A DNA stretch of 37,698 bases from Candidatus Woesearchaeota archaeon (GTDB taxonomy: Archaea > Nanobdellota > Nanobdellia > Pacearchaeales > GW2011-AR1). Under the pieces are notes generated by a model. That model saw only the letters and a list, made by a program, of their open reading frames with translations. It was not told where the DNA came from and made no database searches. Positions 1-7,134 of the stretch are shown piece by piece; the first letter of the stretch is position 1; every line of letters starts with the position of its first letter. The position numbers and the translations under genes are program-made. The stretch spans positions 1 through 37,698 of the forward strand of contig CAYHBQ010000003.1 in the NCBI GenBank assembly GCA_964354995.1, in the 5' to 3' direction.

Positions 1-140
1 TGCTGAAAGCATCTAAGCACGAAGCGATCCGCAAGACGAGTCAACAAAGGCCGTTATAGAAGATAACGTTGATAGAGTTGGTGTGTACGCTCCAAGAACC
101 CGAGGAGTTTAGCATGCAACTACTAATAGCCTCACTTTCA
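1..140 (+). rRNA. rrl: 23S rRNA, 3' end (partial)
   Basis: Conserved 3'-domain motifs GCTGAAAGCATCTAAG, GTTGATAG, GTGTA and ACTAATAG in the expected order; exact 3' end approximate. Confidence 0.92.
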
Positions 141-237
141 GATATTCTGAGAAGACAAAAGAGTCCTTCATTCTTACCTCTGTGCCTACGCGTGTTATTT
201 GATTTTTTTGAAAGGATACTTATAGAATGTTTGCTTC

Positions 238-1896: not shown

Positions 1897-1905
1897 ATGC
1901 GCGTG
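1897..1905. repeat. target-site duplication, left copy (ATGCGCGTG)
   Basis: Identical 9-mer at 5355-5363; both copies abut the terminal inverted repeats. Confidence 0.95.
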
Positions 1906-1959
1906 GGCTTTGCACGGACTGAGCTATTTTGTACGGACAGGACAACCATTTGCCCGAAC
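1906..1959 (+). repeat. left end: 14-bp TIR plus subterminal 11-mers
   Basis: tttgcacggac 1909, tttgtacggac 1928, tttgcccgaac 1949. Confidence 0.85.
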
Positions 1960-2002
1960 GGCAAGTTTTTAAGATTCCCTTGACCTCATAAGAAGGTGGA
2001 TT

Positions 2003-2662
2003 ATGGTATATAAAAGAAAACATCATAATGGGGCGCGGTGCTCTTTCTGCCATGCAAGATTAGATGGTCTTCCGCATAAATGTAGGTATTGTGGTAAAGT
2101 TCATTGCTATGAGCACTTGCTTCCAGAAAACCATAATTGTACTGGTATGTCAAACAAAAGAGAATGGGGGCGATCGTCAAAGAGCAGTTGGCGTAGTAAT
2201 CGTCATAACTCTCGTTGGGATAGAAGCGATTATGAACCTCGCTCTCGATCAACCTTTAGATTGCCGCGAATACGAATAAGTCTTTTCTTTAAGGCTCTGG
2301 TTCTTGCAGCCGCGACCTTTTTCCTCGCTTATAATTTTAATAGCACACTCACGTTGGTGCTTGAGGCTGGCGCATGGATTTATTTTGCATGGGTCTTGTA
2401 CAAGAAAGCATTCAGATGGGCTAATCGAGTAAGCATGGCAGATGACCTTGCATTTTGGGGATTACGTCTCCTGGGAATTGCAGTTGTGTTTGTCGGCGTG
2501 TACATTGCATTTTTCGGACTTCTTGCTGCAGCGCTCACACCTGGCTCCGCACCAACCGCAATACCGTTGTTCGTGCTCTTAGCAGGGCTCGTGCTGCTCG
2601 GGGTCTTTATTGCATTTAGAACCAATAGAAGACATCACGTTGTTGGTGTCTGGCGCGCATAA
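2003..2662 (+). CDS. AN1-type zinc-finger membrane protein (transposon cargo)
   Basis: CSFC..LPHKCRYCGKVHCYEHLLPENHNC AN1 pattern, Arg/Ser-rich linker, four TM helices. Confidence 0.8.
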   Translation: MVYKRKHHNGARCSFCHARLDGLPHKCRYCGKVHCYEHLLPENHNCTGMSNKREWGRSSKSSWRSNRHNSRWDRSDYEPRSRSTFRLPRIRISLFFKALVLAAATFFLAYNFNSTLTLVLEAGAWIYFAWVLYKKAFRWANRVSMADDLAFWGLRLLGIAVVFVGVYIAFFGLLAAALTPGSAPTAIPLFVLLAGLVLLGVFIAFRTNRRHHVVGVWRA

Positions 2663-2686
2663 GTAAGATTTAAATACTCCCTTGGA

Positions 2687-2749
2687 CTGATAAAGGGATG
2701 TACATTGAAAATGGGATACGTCCTGAAGATGGGGTTTACTGAAAATGGT
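2687..2749 (+). repeat. four periodic repeats upstream of cdc6
   Basis: ctgataaaggga, ttgaaaatggga, ctgaagatgggg, ctgaaaatggta; TGA at 2688, 2706, 2724, 2740. Confidence 0.55.
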
Positions 2750-3908
2750 AAAAAAGTTTTCAGAATTTTTGAAGATAGAAAATACTATAATTTCTCAGCC
2801 AGAGGTATTTGATACTGATTCCTACAGCCCGTCTGACGAGGAAATCGTCGAGCGTGGAGAAACAAGCAAGCTCTACAACGAGATTGCAAAGTTCGTTAAA
2901 TACGGAATTCCAAACAACATATTGCTAATAGGTCCTCCGGGAACGGGAAAGACTGTTATCCTAAACAACATTCGAAGTGAGCTTGCTAAAAGGCCTGATT
3001 TTGACGTTCGTCATGTTAATTGTAGCGACAAAACCCCTCAAGTTATACTTTCTTTGATAAATGGCGGAAATATCGACGGGCAGATGCCTGAAAACAAACT
3101 GAAGAATATGTTTCTCAACGGTCTTAATAACAACTGCCTGATCATTTTAGATGAAGTAGATAAGGGACTCAACCTAAAGAGTCTTCTTTTCTTTTTATCG
3201 CGACCGCGAGAACAACTTCAAATCTTTTCACATTCGATTAGTGTCATATTGGTATCTAATGATCCTAATTGGGACAATTCACTCGACATTTCTGTCAGGA
3301 GCTCTCTACAATTGAGAAGGGTATCATTCGAACGTTATTCCAAGGGCCAATTATGCAACATATTGAAATTGAGAGCAAAGGCAGGTTTCAAGTATGACAC
3401 TAACATCCAAAGTACGTTGCTTAGTCTTATAGCCGCGGAAGTCGCAGACAAATATAACGGAGATTGTAGAGTTGCAATTAAAGCACTTCTTTATGCTGCA
3501 CAGAATGCTGAAAATTTGAGAAAAAGTGCGATTGAAGAAAGTGATGTTACTCGCGCATTTCCGAAGGCTCTCGATGACATAGCAAGAAGCAAACTTAGTA
3601 GGCTTAGTAATCGAGACTTTTTAGTGCTTTTTTCGATAGAGGAGAGCAAAGAAAAGACTACCGATGCTATTTACAAAACCTTCTTGGATTTGATTCATCA
3701 GGGACTAAATGTTGAGAAAATAAAACCGACGATGTTTTACTATGTGCTGAATTATCTTGATACACATGGTCTAATTAAACGTAAGTTGGACATAGAAAAA
3801 ATAAAAGATGCTCCACCTCGGCGTATCGTAAGAGTTAGTGGTAATATAGACAAAAAGATCTTGGAAGAAGAGTTGAATAATAGAATGCTCAAACTATCGA
3901 ACAGATGA
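2745..3908 (+). CDS. cdc6: Orc1/Cdc6-family AAA+ replication initiator homolog (transposon cargo)
   Basis: Walker A GPPGTGKT, HVNC, Walker B IILDEVD, F..YS..QL..IL..R, GDCRVAI sensor-2 region, C-terminal winged-helix-like segment (YYVLNYLDTHGLI). Confidence 0.9.
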   Translation: MVKKFSEFLKIENTIISQPEVFDTDSYSPSDEEIVERGETSKLYNEIAKFVKYGIPNNILLIGPPGTGKTVILNNIRSELAKRPDFDVRHVNCSDKTPQVILSLINGGNIDGQMPENKLKNMFLNGLNNNCLIILDEVDKGLNLKSLLFFLSRPREQLQIFSHSISVILVSNDPNWDNSLDISVRSSLQLRRVSFERYSKGQLCNILKLRAKAGFKYDTNIQSTLLSLIAAEVADKYNGDCRVAIKALLYAAQNAENLRKSAIEESDVTRAFPKALDDIARSKLSRLSNRDFLVLFSIEESKEKTTDAIYKTFLDLIHQGLNVEKIKPTMFYYVLNYLDTHGLIKRKLDIEKIKDAPPRRIVRVSGNIDKKILEEELNNRMLKLSNR

Positions 3909-3973
3909 AATGCACAAATAAAAGAGAGTTCGCGAGAAAGTTCATGACCCCTATAGATTGTACTTTATTTACT

Positions 3974-4070
3974 ACATAGGGTACGCGCCCGCCACACGTG
4001 CGTAGTAAGTCACGAGGGCGGGACGCGGGCTCGGGCTACACACCGTTTGTAGAGGTGTGAAAACCCTTGT
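3974..4070. other. GC-rich putative structured element (three-way junction)
   Basis: agggt 3978/accct 4063 closing stem; cgcg-cccgcc 3984-3993/ggcggg-a-cgcg 4017-4027; cacacc 4039/ggtgtg 4054. Confidence 0.5.
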
Positions 4071-4099
4071 CTGTCGGACTATAATCGAAAGAAGGCATT

Positions 4100-4273
4100 T
4101 TAATTCTTTCCTTTGCCTTGCTGCCTTGGTTTGTCCCAATAAGGAGATTTGCATTTAGGGCACACTTTCGGCTTTTCGGTTAGGCTTGTTGGCCTCCATG
4201 TGTGACTGCATCTATAGCACTTATGGCCTACAATGAGAACGAAAGCACCTTCTCTTTGATTCCTCTTACTCAT
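4100..4273 (-). CDS. small zinc-ribbon protein (57 aa, not in ORF track)
   Basis: Manual translation MSKRNQREGAFVLIVGHKCYRCSHTWRPTSLTEKPKVCPKCKSPYWDKPRQQGKGKN with CxxC...CPxC pairs. Confidence 0.85.
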   Translation of the reverse strand: MSKRNQREGAFVLIVGHKCYRCSHTWRPTSLTEKPKVCPKCKSPYWDKPRQQGKGKN

Positions 4274-4340
4274 ATTATCTATAGTATATTATCAATAGGT
4301 ATATTTAAATATTGACTATATACCTAATAGGTACATACTC
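4274..4340. promoter_or_regulatory. divergent promoter between zinc-ribbon gene and transposase
   Basis: Palindromic TATA ATATTTAAATAT at 4301-4312, roughly equidistant from both ATGs; palindrome TACCTA-A-TAGGTA at 4321-4333. Confidence 0.65.
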
Positions 4341-5339
4341 ATGGACATCCAAACAAATTTAGCAGAATATGCTCCCAAGTTCAATTGGGCTCAATATAAC
4401 GCGAGTCAGACGCGGGAGAAACTCATTTTCATGCGTTTGCTTCGAGAGCTGTGCGACTTAGTCGAAGACCCGAAGTATAGAGTTGACCCAAAAGCCGTAC
4501 CTATGAGGGACGTTGTGTTCGGTCTAGCCTTAAGAGTTTATTCTAATTATTCTTTAAGAAGGTTCCAAAGCGATTTGAAATTAGCTCGGGAGGCTAAGTA
4601 CATTGACAGAGATTATCATTTCAATACTATGTCCGATCATATGCAGCATCCGGAGCTGAAGGCAATTGTAAAAGAATTGGTTGAGATCTCAGCCCTTCCT
4701 TTAAAACATATTGAGGAATGCTTCGCTGCAGACGCTACAGGTTTCTCTACATCAAAATTCGAACGTTGGTTTGATATTCGAATGCAAAGAGACTCTAAGA
4801 AACGTGTCTGGCGCAAGTGTCATGCTATTTGTGGAGTGCTCACGAATGTGGTCACTAGCATCGAGATTACCGAGGGTAATGTGAATGATACAACCCAATT
4901 TGGTAAGCTCGTCAAACGAACCGCAAATAATTTTGCTATGAGAGAAGTATCTGCTGACAAAGGTTACCTATCTCGAGATAACATGAGTTTGGTCTCTGAA
5001 TTCGGAGGTACTCCTTACATTCCGTTCAAGAGCAACACTACTGCTAAGTCTCGAGGTTCGACAGTTTGGGCAAGAATGTACAGACAATTCCAGCAGAACA
5101 ATGAGGAGTTTATGAGACATTATCATAAGAGAAGCAACATCGAGTCTACTTTTAGCATGATTAAGGCTCGGTTCGGCAACAACATTAGAAGCAAGAAAGA
5201 AGAATCGCAAGACAATGAAATCTTACTGAAAGTTTTGTGTCATAACTTATGCGTCTTAGTCCAAGAAATCTTTATGCGGAACATAAATATCGATTTTTTA
5301 GTCTGTGCAGAAAACTACGTTGCCCGGACTAAGCATTAA
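4341..5339 (+). CDS. tnp: DDE transposase (IS4/IS5-like, DDE_Tnp_1 type)
   Basis: AADATGF (D1), WRKCH, SADKGY (D2), YHKRSNIESTFSMIK (YREK-like motif with E). Confidence 0.93.
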   Translation: MDIQTNLAEYAPKFNWAQYNASQTREKLIFMRLLRELCDLVEDPKYRVDPKAVPMRDVVFGLALRVYSNYSLRRFQSDLKLAREAKYIDRDYHFNTMSDHMQHPELKAIVKELVEISALPLKHIEECFAADATGFSTSKFERWFDIRMQRDSKKRVWRKCHAICGVLTNVVTSIEITEGNVNDTTQFGKLVKRTANNFAMREVSADKGYLSRDNMSLVSEFGGTPYIPFKSNTTAKSRGSTVWARMYRQFQQNNEEFMRHYHKRSNIESTFSMIKARFGNNIRSKKEESQDNEILLKVLCHNLCVLVQEIFMRNINIDFLVCAENYVARTKH

Positions 5340-5354
5340 TGTCCGTGCAAAGCC
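5301..5354 (-). repeat. right end: 14-bp TIR plus subterminal 11-mers
   Basis: gtccgtgcaaa 5341, gcccggactaa 5322, gtctgtgcaga 5301; mirrors the left-end spacing. Confidence 0.8.
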
Positions 5355-5363
5355 ATGCGCGTG
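5355..5363. repeat. target-site duplication, right copy (ATGCGCGTG)
   Basis: Identical to 1897-1905. Confidence 0.95.
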
Positions 5364-5398
5364 CCAATGTTTAAAAAGCCGTGTCTATCGAGTTAGAG

Positions 5399-5839
5399 GT
5401 GAGTCGGACAGCTGACTCCGGGGGTGCTCTTCGATGAGCAAAGACGCACATACGTTTTCTCCTGAGGAAGGTCCGGACATCCGTTGGCGAGTTATATCGT
5501 CAATGCAATCACGATCCGTTGAAAGACGGCCGGCCGCGAGGTCGAGCAACCCTCAAAAACACACTGTTTTTGGGGCATAGAAAATCCGACGTAAGAAAGA
5601 TTTTCCGTGGCAACAGAAACGACACAGCACACATTGAGCAATGAACCCTGCGGGGAGCTACGAGATGTGTGATTTGATGAAACGTCACACTCGTCAGAGA
5701 TGTGAAGTGCTCGCGAGAGCATTGGCGCCTTCGTGGTATGCAAGTGCCTTAGCCGCACGCGTAGTCAGATGTCAGCACGCACCGTTCGTTACCGAAAGGA
5801 AAACGAGGTCCGACAGAATCTGGCCTATGTCCGACTCAC
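5399..5839 (+). ncRNA. rnpB: RNase P RNA
   Basis: P1 GTGAGTCGGACA/TGTCCGACTCAC; GAGGAAGGTCCGG; GCAACAGAAAC; TGAAAC; ACAGAATCTGGCCTAT; TATA box at about 5370 and T-tract after the end. Confidence 0.93.
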
Positions 5840-6943: not shown

Positions 6944-6993
6944 GAAACAGGTATCGATAACATTTAAAAGAGGTTCTGGGTTGGTTAATTCAT

Positions 6994-7065
6994 GGGAGTG
7001 TAGCTCAGTGGGAGAGCACACGACTGAAGCTCGTGGTGTCGGGGGTTCGATTCCCTCCACTCCCA
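6994..7065 (+). tRNA. tRNA-Phe (GAA), no intron, CCA not encoded
   Basis: Acceptor GGGAGTG/CACTCCC-A; D arm GCTC/GAGC; anticodon arm CACGA-CTGAAGC-TCGTG; T loop TTCGATT. Confidence 0.96.
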
Positions 7066-7134
7066 TCCCTGTTGTGAATCGAACGCGTTTAGAGAACTAC
7101 GAATCTTTAAATATGCCCTTTAGTTGGTTTTTTT

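What the first reader, a model, noticed from the sequence alone, without database searches (positions are those of the whole stretch)
1897..5363. Intact single-transposase transposon carrying an Orc1/Cdc6 replication initiator
Seen: perfect 14-bp TIRs (1906-1919, 5341-5354) flanked by a perfect 9-bp TSD (ATGCGCGTG). They enclose one DDE transposase, a full-length Orc1/Cdc6 with intact Walker A/B, an AN1-zinc-finger membrane protein and a small zinc-ribbon gene. It is one unit, not a composite of two IS copies. Known: extra orc1/cdc6 genes occur on integrated elements, for example in haloarchaea, and unrelated DDE systems (Mu, Tn7, IS21) use AAA+ partners for target capture. Inference: this is either a mobile replication-origin cassette or a transposon that co-opted a Cdc6 ATPase as regulator or targeting factor. 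I do not recall such a compact element being described in DPANN. The perfect ends suggest a recent insertion.
Basis: partly seen in the sequence, partly recalled or inferred. Interest (0 to 1): 0.9.

Follow-up and report, generated by a model that had tools for sequence, protein, structure and literature searches.

The report
Cargo transposon carrying an extra Orc1/Cdc6
A real, recently inserted 3.4-kb transposon in a tiny archaeal genome carries an extra replication-initiator-like gene, but that gene is only a passenger on one member of a large family of transposons, found in archaea and bacteria, that mostly ferry restriction-modification genes.

Summary
Perfect 14-bp TIRs (1906-1919, 5341-5354) and a perfect 9-bp duplication (ATGCGCGTG) enclose four genes. 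A same-genus genome (G005) has the empty site with one copy of the 9-mer.

The element belongs to a large IS5-superfamily lineage with GGCTTTG ends and 9-bp duplications.
- At least 576 relatives lie in archaeal and bacterial genomes.
- I delimited 45 of the 80 loci kept, at 1.8-7.5 kb; shuffles gave 0-2 calls.
- A small Zn-ribbon gene lies divergently upstream of the transposase in 38 of 84 loci.
- The rest is variable cargo, mostly restriction-modification genes.

The Orc1/Cdc6-like gene is intact and folds as a full archaeal Orc1. I found it in no other family locus. It is 29% identical to the vertical Orc1, a piece of which the host keeps on contig C42.

A second element in the same genome (66% identical transposase) carries an unrelated NTPase. 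So the gene is a passenger, not a conserved transposition partner.

The gene does belong to a rare clade that sits beside DDE transposases in all five contexts seen. In archaeal hosts the family also inserts next to TATA-like boxes (post hoc).

The parts
1897..1905 (.). left copy of the 9-bp target-site duplication ATGCGCGTG
   Evidence: a single copy (ATGCGTGTA) stands at the empty site of G005
1906..1919 (+). left terminal inverted repeat GGCTTTGCACGGAC; a second ACGGAC follows at 1934-1939
   Evidence: I6: 14 nt, 100% complementary; the GGCTTTG terminus is shared by 42 of 45 delimited relatives
2003..2662 (+). cargo gene 1: 219-aa protein with an N-terminal AN1 zinc finger and a hydrophobic C-terminal half (predicted membrane protein)
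   Evidence: Pfam zf-AN1 32 bits, above the 27.9 cut-off; hydropathy windows at residues 90-112, 148-182 and 180-209; no NCBIfam or PADLOC hit
2745..3908 (+). cargo gene 2: 387-aa divergent Orc1/Cdc6 paralog (AAA+ base, Cdc6 lid, C-terminal winged helix). Walker A GPPGTGKT, Walker B ILDEVD, RSSL and GDCRVA motifs are kept across its clade
   Evidence: TIGR02928 151.6 bits, below the 181.3 cut-off; 2qby_A, 1.1e-20; pLDDT 90.5; 2qby_A TM 0.67/0.70 over 381 columns
3909..4099 (.). G+C-rich spacer between the convergent cdc6-like and Zn-ribbon genes, with a strong hairpin around 3983-4027. Function unknown; probably a two-way terminator
   Evidence: fold z -1.9 (+ strand) and -3.0 (- strand); no Rfam match; no tRNA by ARAGORN even with introns or a lower threshold
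4100..4273 (-). 57-aa Zn-ribbon protein (CxxC...CxxC), transcribed divergently from the transposase. It is the recurrent partner gene of this transposase family
   Evidence: homologs lie within 1 kb upstream of the transposase, always on the opposite strand, in 38 of 84 loci
4274..4340 (.). A+T-rich divergent promoter region with a tandem 13-mer (4272-4284, 4286-4298) and an imperfect inverted repeat (4283-4304 / 4318-4339). Candidate operator sites (inference)
   Evidence: D16, I2
4341..5339 (+). 332-aa DDE transposase of the IS4/IS5 type. D131, D206, E268 and the Y261-R264-E268-K275 signature are invariant among four relatives
   Evidence: Pfam DDE_Tnp_1 86.3 bits; NCBIfam IS5 model NF033579 122 bits, below the 140 cut-off; alignment A1
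5341..5354 (-). right terminal inverted repeat, starting 1 nt after the transposase stop codon
5355..5363 (.). right copy of the 9-bp target-site duplication
5370..5839 (+). flank, not part of the element: TATA-like TTTAAAAA (5370-5377) and the archaeal RNase P RNA gene (5399-5839). The element ends 35 nt plus the duplication upstream of the RNA
   Evidence: Rfam RF00373 59.7 bits, below the gathering score of 84, E 1.4e-15, full model 1-288; conserved in all 8 same-genus genomes

Best explanation
This is an autonomous unit ('cargo') transposon of a large IS5-superfamily lineage with IS903-like hallmarks: GGCTTTG termini and a 9-bp target duplication.

Core and mobility.
- The core is the DDE transposase plus a small Zn-ribbon gene transcribed divergently from it.
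- The transposase binds the two TIRs, makes a cut staggered by 9 bp in the target, and joins the element ends to it. This step is inferred from the duplication and from what is known of IS4/IS5-type DDE enzymes.
- The Zn-ribbon protein most likely acts as a small DNA-binding regulator or cofactor at the shared promoter or the ends (inferred).

Cargo.
- Everything between the left TIR and this core is exchangeable cargo.
- In most relatives the cargo is a restriction-modification or other conflict/addiction module.
- Here it is a two-gene cassette: an AN1-zinc-finger membrane protein and a divergent, catalytically intact Orc1/Cdc6 paralog from a rare clade linked to mobile elements.
- That gene is a passenger, not a conserved part of the transposition machinery. 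The host keeps its own vertical Orc1.

My best guess for the passenger's role, about 40% within this reading, is an ATP-switched DNA binder serving element maintenance, exclusion or defence, in line with the cargo of its relatives. A genuine replicator role is about 25%; the rest is unknown.

The insertion lies between two divergent promoters, 6 nt upstream of the TATA-like box of the RNase P RNA gene. Such a site harms nothing in a compact genome.
For: Shown for this element.
- TIR, duplication and the empty site in G005.
- One copy in the genome.
- The transposase has an invariant DDE/YREK signature.

Shown for the family.
- At least 576 tblastn-confirmed relatives in archaea and bacteria.
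- TIR plus an exact 9-bp duplication were found in 45 of the 80 kept loci. Block shuffles gave 0, 1, 2, 2 and 2 calls.
- 42 of the 45 have GGCTTTG-like ends. Lengths run from 1,802 to 7,486 bp, median 4,316. The smallest, L036, is the core only.
- Manually delimited same-genus elements: G003, 4,022 bp with TSD CCAAAAATC; G004, 4,825 bp with TSD CATTCATCC.
- Zn-ribbon homologs lie upstream on the opposite strand in 38 of 84 loci.

Cargo is variable.
- 260 ORFs fall into 181 clusters.
- Pfam tally over 129 cargo ORFs of at least 100 aa from 44 elements: N6_Mtase 7, N6_N4_Mtase 6, Eco57I 5, DNA_methylase 4, TaqI_C 3, MmeI_Mtase 3, D12 MTase 2, Vsr 2, MvaI_BcnI 2, HNH 2, Mrr 2, SocA_Panacea 2, Peptidase_M78 2, EcoRI methylase 1, EcoO109I 1.
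- PADLOC hits on the same set are dominated by MTase models.
- The nearest transposase relatives carry restriction-modification genes. L033 (57% identical) has GmrSD/HNH and an EcoRI methylase. L034 (52%) has MvaI/BcnI, an N6_N4 MTase and DprA.

The Orc1/Cdc6-like gene is a passenger.
- No homolog among the cargo ORFs by phmmer. By tblastn over the 80 loci there is only a weak hit in L061, and it lies outside that element.
- E2 has a 66% identical transposase, but its ATPase shows no similarity to this one (blastp E 0.3) and matches nSTAND_NTPase5.

The host has its own Orc1. C42 holds a C-terminal piece that is 73% identical to the Orc1 of same-genus G004. The element's protein is 28.6% identical to that Orc1.

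The protein looks intact: motifs are conserved across 14 clade members, and the AF2 model (pLDDT 90.5) matches DNA-bound archaeal Orc1 over its full length.
Against: - The Orc1/Cdc6-like clade is rare: 12 relatives of 145 bits or more among 5.8 billion clustered proteins, and 3 of 401 phylum genomes at clade level.
- All five contexts I could read lie within about 2.5 kb of a DDE transposase gene or remnant (E1, L154, G143, G529, G498). Three of the five involve IS5-like transposases or fragments. That is more linkage than 'random passenger' predicts.
- Both elements of this genome carry an ATPase with a C-terminal winged helix. For E2's protein the top Foldseek hits are ORC/Cdc6 chains, but the model is poor (pLDDT 58.6, TM about 0.4).
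- The cargo's function is not shown. PADLOC gave only weak hits: mad8 at 3.7e-6 and HEC-02B at 7e-4.
- I examined the best 80 of at least 576 loci, and 35 of those 80 were not delimited. Cdc6-bearing members could exist among those not seen.
- Transposition activity itself is inferred. No excision or circle form was seen.
Confidence: 0.8

Rival explanations
1. The Orc1/Cdc6-like ATPase is a transposition accessory factor in this sublineage. It would act as an ATP-dependent target selector or regulator working with the DDE transposase, as MuB, TnsC and IstB do for their transposases.
For: - All five readable contexts of the rare clade lie beside DDE transposases or remnants.
- In L154 a 55% identical homolog sits directly upstream of a distant IS5-like transposase (31% identical) on the same strand.
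- E1 and E2 both carry an NTPase with a winged helix.
- Both are inserted at the same spacing, 35 nt beyond the duplication, upstream of a stable-RNA gene.
Against: - The ATPase is absent from the other family loci examined. These include the core-only element L036 and the nearest relatives L033 and L034, so the transposase works without it.
- The E1 and E2 ATPases are not homologous by sequence.
- Insertion next to TATA-like boxes is also seen for elements with no ATPase, such as L036, L038, L061 and L066, so target choice does not need it.
- Two of the five contexts involve an unrelated IS6-type transposase. That fits 'gene of the mobilome' better than a specific partnership.
Confidence: 0.07
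2. The element is a mobile replicon or origin cassette. The Orc1/Cdc6 paralog would bind a cognate origin inside the element and recruit the host MCM. That would let an excised copy replicate, or add an origin to the chromosome.
For: - The protein is a full three-domain Orc1 with intact ATPase motifs. Its best structural matches are origin-DNA-bound archaeal Orc1 structures.
- Orc1/Cdc6 homologs on archaeal integrated elements are read as replication initiators in Krupovic et al. 2019 (PMC6563490, passages seen). Makarova et al. 2014 list them as virus-associated (PMC4158269, table passage seen).
Against: - No origin-like region is visible. The intergenic stretches are 83, 82, 191 and 67 nt long.
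- No multi-copy repeat lies next to the gene. The only tandem or inverted repeats sit in the transposase promoter.
- The 191-nt spacer is G+C-rich, not A+T-rich.
- No circle junction or joined form appeared in four runs, though these are contigs only, which cannot show rare forms.
- The family moves as an integrated transposon with duplications, and 44 other delimited members lack any initiator.
Confidence: 0.1
3. Not one element: a chance inverted repeat, or a composite of separate insertions. One version would be a small IS next to a pre-existing cdc6 island.
For: The Zn-ribbon plus transposase core would by itself make an element of about 1.8 kb, as in L036.
Against: - The empty site in G005 lacks all four genes at once.
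- There is no third TIR-like sequence (3 mismatches or fewer) inside 1920-5340.
- The duplication flanks the outer TIRs exactly.
- Relatives of 2.4-7.5 kb have the same layout.
Confidence: 0.02

Closest known systems
IS903 group of the IS5 family (ISfinder classification; its features are recalled, not taken from a call)
   Same: - DDE_Tnp_1 transposase with the Y-R-E-K signature.
- 9-bp target duplication.
- Termini beginning GGC. Many relatives end GGCTTTGTTTAATA.
- The best NCBIfam match is an IS5-family model.
   Different: - Classical members are about 1-kb single-gene IS. This lineage is 1.8-7.5 kb, often has a second conserved small gene (the Zn-ribbon), and carries passenger genes.
- The NCBIfam score is below the equivalog cut-off (122 against 140).
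- The nearest plasmid-borne IS5-family transposases are only 22-28% identical.
IS with passenger genes ('transporter IS', tIS) and unit transposons. This includes the transposon-like restriction-modification units of Furuta, Abe and Kobayashi 2010 (PMC2853133, passages seen)
   Same: One set of TIRs and a short duplication enclose a transposase together with non-transposition genes. Restriction-modification systems move as such units.
   Different: - The units of Furuta et al. have 8-bp duplications and 26-65-bp repeats, and mostly no recognisable transposase.
- I found no paper describing this IS5-like, Zn-ribbon-bearing, cross-domain family.
- Supplements were closed, and most papers of subscription journals are not in the searched library.
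Tn7-like transposons with defence cargo (Benler et al. 2021, PMC8649781; search listing and start of abstract only); also Mu, Tn7 and IS21 with their AAA+ partners (recalled)
   Same: A transposon that ferries variable defence or restriction-modification cargo. E1 also holds an AAA+ ATPase gene next to a DDE transposase.
   Different: In Tn7, Mu and IS21 the ATPase is conserved family-wide and needed for transposition. Here I found it in none of the other loci examined.
Orc1/Cdc6 paralogs of archaeal integrated elements, plasmids and viruses (Krupovic et al. 2019, PMC6563490; Makarova et al. 2014, PMC4158269; passages seen)
   Same: An extra, divergent Orc1/Cdc6 encoded on a mobile element beside the host's own initiator.
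   Different: - Those elements are multigene ICEs, cryptic elements or viruses of 2.6-140 kb that integrate by recombinases.
- In that study IS-like transposons are described as holding 1-2 genes.
- Here the carrier is a 3.4-kb DDE transposon, and no origin is visible.
PIF/Harbinger transposons of eukaryotes (recalled, not from a call)
   Same: An IS5-related DDE transposase accompanied by a second small DNA-binding protein gene.
   Different: The partner there is a Myb/SANT protein shown to be required. Here it is a Zn-ribbon protein present in 38 of 84 loci, and its role is untested.

Membership tests
IS5 family / IS903 group | DDE transposase of the IS4/IS5 type (Pfam DDE_Tnp_1) with conserved D, D, E and the Y-x2-R-x3-E-x6-K signature | tested here: met
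   DDE_Tnp_1 86.3 bits against a cut-off of 23. D131, D206, E268, Y261, R264 and K275 are invariant in A1. The signature itself is recalled.
IS5 family / IS903 group | score over the curated NCBIfam IS5 equivalog cut-off | tested here: not met
   NF033579 122 bits against a cut-off of 140. It is still the best model, E 3.3e-35.
IS5 family / IS903 group | 9-bp target duplication and termini starting GGC (group definition recalled) | tested here: met
   ATGCGCGTG twice. Ends are GGCTTTG.... The same holds in 42 of 45 delimited relatives.
IS5 family / IS903 group | simple IS of about 1 kb with the transposase as the only gene (recalled) | tested here: not met
   3,449 bp with four genes. The family minimum is 1,802 bp.
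Unit transposon / IS with passenger genes | one transposase gene and one pair of TIRs enclosing non-transposition genes, inserted as one piece with a duplication | tested here: met
Composite transposon | two IS copies flanking the cargo | tested here: not met
   One transposase gene. There is no internal TIR with 3 mismatches or fewer.
Orc1/Cdc6 (archaeal initiator family) | AAA+ module with Walker A/B, sensor 1, arginine finger and sensor 2, plus the Cdc6 lid | tested here: met
   Cdc6_lid 40.2 against 27 and AAA 36.6 against 21.2. Motifs align with 2qby_A and are invariant in clade alignment A4.
Orc1/Cdc6 (archaeal initiator family) | score over the curated TIGR02928 cut-off | tested here: not met
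   151.6 bits against 181.3
Orc1/Cdc6 (archaeal initiator family) | C-terminal winged-helix DNA-binding domain | tested here: met
   There is no Pfam Cdc6_C hit, and no clade member has a precomputed one. The AF2 model shows helices followed by a beta-hairpin at residues 344-366. It aligns over 381 columns with 2qby_A, TM 0.67/0.70.
Orc1/Cdc6 (archaeal initiator family) | acts at an adjacent origin with repeated recognition boxes | tested here: inconclusive
   No repeat family or A+T-rich stretch of 200 nt or more lies next to the gene. Binding sites could be short, and function is not testable here.
AAA+-assisted DDE transposons (Mu, Tn7, IS21 type) | ATPase gene conserved with the transposase across the family | tested here: not met
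   No homolog in the cargo of 44 delimited elements or beside the transposase in 80 loci. The E2 ATPase is unrelated.
zf-AN1 proteins | AN1 zinc-finger domain over the Pfam cut-off | tested here: met
   32 bits against 27.9, residues 13-49

The most novel reading that the evidence does not exclude
The rare Orc1/Cdc6-like clade would be an initiator adapted to transposons.
- It has about a dozen relatives in 5.8 billion clustered proteins, and all five readable contexts lie beside DDE transposases.
- On this reading it gives small DDE transposons of DPANN archaea an episomal, self-replicating phase, or couples transposition to replication. The element would then be a minimal transposon-replicon hybrid.
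- Separately, the transposase family itself appears to aim at the upstream edge of archaeal promoters (BRE/TATA). That would be an archaeal counterpart of promoter-targeted elements such as Ty3 (comparison recalled).
Probability: 0.1. Interest if true: 0.85.

Novelty: new variant of a known kind. Interest (0 to 1): 0.5.

Why it matters
For the finding as written, the result is sobering. The initiator gene is a passenger, so this is not a new AAA+-assisted transposition system.

What remains is still useful.

1. There is a widespread lineage of IS903-like unit transposons that I could not find described. It spans DPANN and other archaea and at least eight bacterial phyla. It has a two-gene core and a cargo bay filled mainly with restriction-modification and conflict genes. 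It is a compact vehicle for moving such systems between domains, and easy to delimit by GGCTTTG ends plus a 9-bp duplication.

2. This is a clean natural example of an extra, divergent Orc1/Cdc6 moved by a DDE transposon into a 0.66-Mb genome. It bears on how archaeal genomes acquire orc paralogs.

3. In archaeal hosts insertions sit next to TATA-like boxes. If this holds up, it offers a testable case of promoter-proximal 'safe-haven' targeting in archaea.

Tried and rejected
Leads that gave nothing or were dropped:
- No RNA holder was listed for the stretch.
- Laying four runs (all contigs) showed no empty-site form, no TIR-TIR circle junction and no other joint. Contigs cannot show rare forms. 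Loose ends in X5 at 1840 and 3980 and in X1 at 4131/4162 hint at variant contexts. They rest on one low-depth contig each and I did not follow them up.
- The G+C-rich spacer 3909-4099 has no Rfam match and no tRNA. Its alignment with the spacer behind the L154 homolog is unconvincing.
- I could not delimit the L154 element: no credible TIR or duplication at any duplication length from 3 to 11.
- The Cys-rich 165-aa protein upstream of the G498 homolog is not significantly similar to the AN1 protein (E 0.076) and has no Pfam hit. I therefore do not claim a conserved AN1-Cdc6 pair.
- E2's 347-aa ORF against L033's 386-aa ORF gave E 1.0.
- The E2 ATPase model is poor (pLDDT 58.6), so its ORC/Cdc6-topped Foldseek list (TM about 0.4) is only a hint. 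No relative of it turned up in 400 other class genomes.
- PADLOC gave only weak hits for the E1 and E2 cargo.
- The ESM Atlas gave only generic rubredoxin-like clusters for the Zn-ribbon protein.
- I tried to check IS903's ends on a plasmid hit. The hit was another IS5-family element beside a resistance gene. I read only the annotation table and dropped the route, so IS903's 9-bp duplication and GGC ends remain recalled. The paper opened for this (PMC3281130, passages) does not state them.
- Seven literature searches found no description of this family. Supplements were closed, and most papers of subscription journals are not in the searched library.
- Caveat on ORF calls: those in G+C-rich bacterial loci are crude (longest ORFs) and include spurious antisense ORFs. 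Clusters 0 (transposase) and 2 (mostly ORFs on the strand opposite the transposase) were dropped before the cargo tally, as were ORFs under 100 aa and L055, whose call rests on low-complexity sequence.
- One of the 80 loci may be the same place as one of the four elements I added by hand, so '84 loci' may be 83.

Full report
**1. Is it there?**

Yes. The 14-mer GGCTTTGCACGGAC stands at 1906-1919 and, reverse-complemented, at 5341-5354.
- These are the only exact copies in the window and in the whole 661-kb, 43-contig genome.
- The 9-mer ATGCGCGTG occurs exactly twice in the window and abuts both TIRs. The expected number is 0.25, and 3 of 100 shuffles reached two.

The decisive control is an empty site.
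- In the same-genus genome G005, contig C10 carries the left flank (84% identity) and the right flank (81%) back to back.
- They surround a single ATGCGTGTA...GGAGGTTTAAAAACT-ATGCGTGTA-CCAACGTTTAAAAAGCC....
- So 3,449 bp went in as one piece and duplicated 9 bp.
- Contigs of run X1 bridge both junctions. Runs from three other studies hold identical pieces of the element. X1 may be the source sample and is not independent.

**2. Anatomy**

From left to right:
- Left TIR.
- A 219-aa protein with an AN1 zinc finger (32 bits against 27.9) and hydrophobic stretches at residues 90-112, 148-182 and 180-209.
- A gap of 82 nt.
- A 387-aa Orc1/Cdc6-like ATPase.
- A 191-nt G+C-rich spacer with a hairpin.
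- A 57-aa Zn-ribbon gene on the minus strand.
- A 67-nt A+T-rich divergent promoter region with short repeats.
- A 332-aa DDE_Tnp_1 transposase (86.3 bits).
- Right TIR, 1 nt after the stop codon.

There is one transposase gene and no internal TIR, so this is a unit transposon, not a composite.

**3. The host**

- The window starts with the 3' end of an archaeal 23S rRNA.
- The genome is 0.66 Mb and 91% complete.
- The closest transposase loci lie in records titled Pacearchaeota, Woesearchaeota and Nanoarchaeota.

**4. A second element in the same genome**

The only other transposase copy is on contig C7, at 66% identity on both the DNA and the protein level.
- Its right end (...CCTGTGCAAAGCC) is followed by GCGACAAAA.
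- The same 9-mer precedes a left end, GGCTTTGCACGGGT, on contig C15.
- C15's last 102 nt overlap C7's first 102 nt with two mismatches (read by eye).
- Another assembly holds the uninterrupted 375-aa product (P0122).

So 'E2' is an element of about 3.8 kb with its own 9-bp duplication. Its cargo differs:
- an NTPase of about 375 aa with a C-terminal winged helix;
- a 347-aa ORF with no family;
- a 71-aa minus-strand ORF.

The NTPase shows no similarity to E1's protein (blastp E 0.3). It matches nSTAND_NTPase5 at 28.4 bits, below the cut-off of 34; the same family is on record for 6 of the 8 proteins of its small family listed.

**5. The family**

- Same-genus genomes. G003 holds a 4,022-bp element with TSD CCAAAAATC. 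G004 holds a 4,825-bp element with TSD CATTCATCC. Both transposases are about 44% identical to E1's, and the cargo is different again.
- G004's cargo includes a 404-aa P-loop ATPase and a 200-aa partner. I read these by eye as an abortive-infection type pair. This was not scanned.
- A scan of one genome per species found at least 576 confirmed relatives. They occur in archaea (DPANN, Thermoplasmatota, Methanosarcinales and others) and in bacteria (Chloroflexota, Acidobacteriota, Alphaproteobacteria, Planctomycetota, Actinomycetota, Deinococcota and others).
- In the 80 best loci, a script looked for an exact 9-bp duplication with at least 11 of 14 complementary terminal bases.
  - It delimited 45 elements, against 0, 1, 2, 2 and 2 after block shuffling.
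  - 42 have GGCTTTG-like ends.
  - Lengths run from 1,802 to 7,486 bp, median 4,316.
  - 27 of the 42 have the transposase within 100 bp of the right end.
  - 15 also carry at least 400 bp beyond it.
- None is a 1-kb IS. The smallest, L036, is just a small minus-strand gene plus the transposase.

**6. What is conserved and what is not**

Conserved:
- Homologs of E1's Zn-ribbon protein lie within 1 kb upstream of the transposase, always on the opposite strand, in 38 of 84 loci.
- Some loci without it have a small HTH protein at that place instead (cluster 6).

Not conserved:
- Cargo is highly variable: 260 ORFs fall into 181 clusters.
- Of 129 cargo ORFs of at least 100 aa from 44 elements, the leading Pfam families are DNA methyltransferases and restriction enzymes, plus a few toxin-antitoxin or conflict domains. 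PADLOC agrees.
- E1's nearest relatives outside its genome carry restriction-modification genes. L033 has GmrSD/HNH and an EcoRI methylase. L034 has MvaI/BcnI, an N6_N4 methylase and DprA.
- E1's Orc1/Cdc6-like protein has no homolog in any of these elements.
- The only clear P-loop cargo ORFs with a G-rich Walker A are in E1, E2 and G004. They come from three unrelated families, all in one genus.

**7. The Orc1/Cdc6-like protein itself**

It is a real, intact member of the fold.
- The best PDB sequence match is S. solfataricus Orc1-1 (2qby_A, 1.1e-20), with Walker A/B, RSSL and GDxR motifs aligned.
- The motifs are invariant among 14 clade members.
- The AF2 model (pLDDT 90.5) matches DNA-bound archaeal Orc1 over the full length, including the winged helix.

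It is not the host's initiator.
- Of the 201 order genomes scanned (G000 among them), 192 have a match, nearly always exactly one, and the other genomes' matches are 26-33% identical.
- The host's own Orc1 survives as a C-terminal piece at the edge of contig C42. That piece is 73% identical to G004's Orc1. E1's protein is 28.6% identical to it.

It belongs to a small, sharply separated clade.
- There are 12 relatives of 145-433 bits among 5.8 billion clustered proteins. The score then drops to 81 bits for ordinary Orc1/Cdc6.
- No clade member has a precomputed Cdc6_C hit.
- With the clade profile, only G000 (518 bits), G529 (382) and G498 (268) of 401 phylum genomes stand above the ordinary Orc1 level of 193 bits or less. 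In the order sample G143 also qualifies.

**8. Contexts of that clade**

This is the main evidence against a purely random passenger. All five contexts I could read are mobile.
- E1: as described above.
- L154 (metagenome): a 55% identical homolog sits directly upstream of a distant IS5-like transposase (31% identical). A methylase, a PD-(D/E)XK nuclease and a wHTH gene lie on the other side.
- G143: the homolog is followed by an IS6-type transposase (DDE_Tnp_IS240 with SWIM).
- G529: the homolog is followed by an HTH protein and a 38-aa remnant of an E1-like transposase. A phage-type integrase and toxin-antitoxin-like genes lie nearby.
- G498: the order is a Cys-rich protein, the homolog, a 339-aa ORF, a Zn-ribbon homolog (60% identical to E1's), an RNase H-like exonuclease and an IS6-type transposase.

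The clade therefore lives on the mobilome. Two of the five neighbours are an unrelated transposase family. This fits a selfish or maintenance module that hitch-hikes better than it fits a dedicated partner of one transposase.

**9. How it most likely works**

- Shown: the insertion with its 9-bp duplication; the intact catalytic signature; the family-wide architecture.
- Inferred: the DDE transposase binds the GGCTTTG ends (subterminal ACGGAC repeats at the left end), makes a 9-bp staggered target cut and integrates the element.
- Inferred: the Zn-ribbon protein acts at the divergent promoter or the ends.
- Cargo function is not shown. Given the company it keeps, I favour a maintenance, exclusion or defence role for the ATP-switched DNA binder, possibly together with the AN1 membrane protein, over a replicator role. 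No origin-like sequence is visible.

**10. Target sites (seen in passing, post hoc)**

E1 and E2 both place their transposase-proximal end so that 35 nt separate the duplication from a stable-RNA gene.
- E1: RNase P RNA at 5399-5839. RF00373 scores 59.7 bits, below the gathering score, E 1.4e-15.
- E2: 5S rRNA at L002:2565-2679, 66.1 bits.
- In both, TTTAAAAA or TTTTTAAA starts 6 nt after the duplication.

Across 23 archaeal-host elements:
- An all-A/T 8-mer starts 5-7 nt beyond the duplication in 13 right flanks and 9 left flanks, 18 elements in all.
- The rate is 9.1% at non-ORF positions of the same loci.
- The right-flank consensus is aAA..TTTaTAAA.
- The criterion was set after looking, and related elements are not independent.
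- Elements without any ATPase show the pattern too, so it does not depend on the Cdc6-like gene.

In bacterial hosts (n = 25) there is no such box. Many sites lie in palindromes (by eye).

**11. Another passing observation**

- Eleven of the 80 loci, all bacterial, carry a tRNA gene on the transposase strand. In most it lies next to the 3' end of the Zn-ribbon gene.
- In 8 of the 11 its 3' end lies 544-576 nt upstream of the transposase start.
- The anticodons vary, including tta twice and taa twice.
- E1 has its G+C-rich spacer at that place and no tRNA.

**12. Comparison with what is known, and verdict**

- Mechanistically this is an IS903-like DDE element. IS903's features are recalled.
- Structurally it is an IS with passenger genes, that is, a unit transposon.
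- Transposon-like restriction-modification units have been reported (Furuta et al. 2010, passages).
- Orc1/Cdc6 genes on archaeal integrated elements are known (Krupovic et al. 2019; Makarova et al. 2014; passages).
- Seven searches found no description of this family, or of a DDE transposon carrying an Orc1/Cdc6.

Verdict:
- The 'AAA+ partner' and 'mobile origin' readings are not supported.
- It is a new variant of a known kind, of moderate interest, with two testable side leads: the transposase-linked Cdc6-like clade and insertion next to TATA-like boxes.

Noticed in passing
G000 contigs C15:17650-18920 and C7:1-2651 (loci L007, L002): A second element of about 3.8 kb from the same family, split over two contigs. 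They overlap by 102 nt with 2 mismatches. Its 9-bp duplication is GCGACAAAA. Cargo is an nSTAND5-like NTPase with a wHTH, a 347-aa ORF and a 71-aa ORF. Its right end lies 35 nt plus the duplication upstream of the 5S rRNA gene.
   Followed up: yes
window 5399-5839 (+): Archaeal RNase P RNA gene. It scores below Rfam's gathering score (59.7 against 84 bits, E 1.4e-15, full-length model match), so standard annotation would miss it. The stretch is conserved in all 8 same-genus genomes.
   Followed up: partly
flanks of 23 archaeal-host elements (E1, E2, G003, G004, L033-L111): Insertions sit next to TATA-like boxes. An all-A/T 8-mer starts 5-7 nt beyond the duplication in 13 of 23 right flanks and 9 of 23 left flanks, against 9.1% at non-ORF control positions. 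The criterion is post hoc and the elements are related. It also holds for elements with no ATPase.
   Followed up: partly
bacterial loci L054, L060, L071, L075, L079, L088, L103, L107: In bacterial hosts many insertion sites lie at the apex or in an arm of perfect palindromes (terminator- or REP-like hairpins). Seen by eye, not quantified.
   Followed up: no
L056, L057, L060, L062, L064, L076, L081, L084, L086, L090, L106: Eleven of 80 loci, all bacterial, carry a tRNA gene inside the element on the transposase strand, in most next to the 3' end of the Zn-ribbon gene. In 8 of the 11 its 3' end lies 544-576 nt upstream of the transposase start. Anticodons vary and include tta (reads UAA) twice and taa twice.
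   Followed up: partly
G000 contig C42:2004-2336 (-): C-terminal 111 residues of the host's vertical Orc1/Cdc6, 73% identical to the same-genus G004 protein. The gene is cut by the contig end, so the host's own initiator gene is incompletely assembled.
   Followed up: yes
L143 (G143:C5), L188 (G498:C2): Relatives of the element's Orc1/Cdc6-like protein lie next to IS6-type transposases (DDE_Tnp_IS240, one with a SWIM finger). A 198-aa HExxH-motif protein in G143 resembles, by eye, a 184-aa ORF inside the G004 element.
   Followed up: partly
L064 and L108 (two places on one contig): Two different elements (7,486 and 5,973 bp) in one genome are inserted into copies of the same sequence in opposite orientation. 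Their duplications, AGTTCAAGC and GCTTGAACT, are reverse complements.
   Followed up: no
window 3909-4099: A G+C-rich 191-nt spacer with a strong hairpin lies between the convergent cdc6-like and Zn-ribbon genes. There is no Rfam or tRNA match. In run X5 one contig leaves the sequence at 3980, hinting at a variant context.
   Followed up: partly
window 1-146 and 6993-7068: The 3' end of the 23S rRNA and a tRNA-Phe(GAA) gene. Together with RNase P RNA they make this a neighbourhood rich in stable RNA genes.
   Followed up: no
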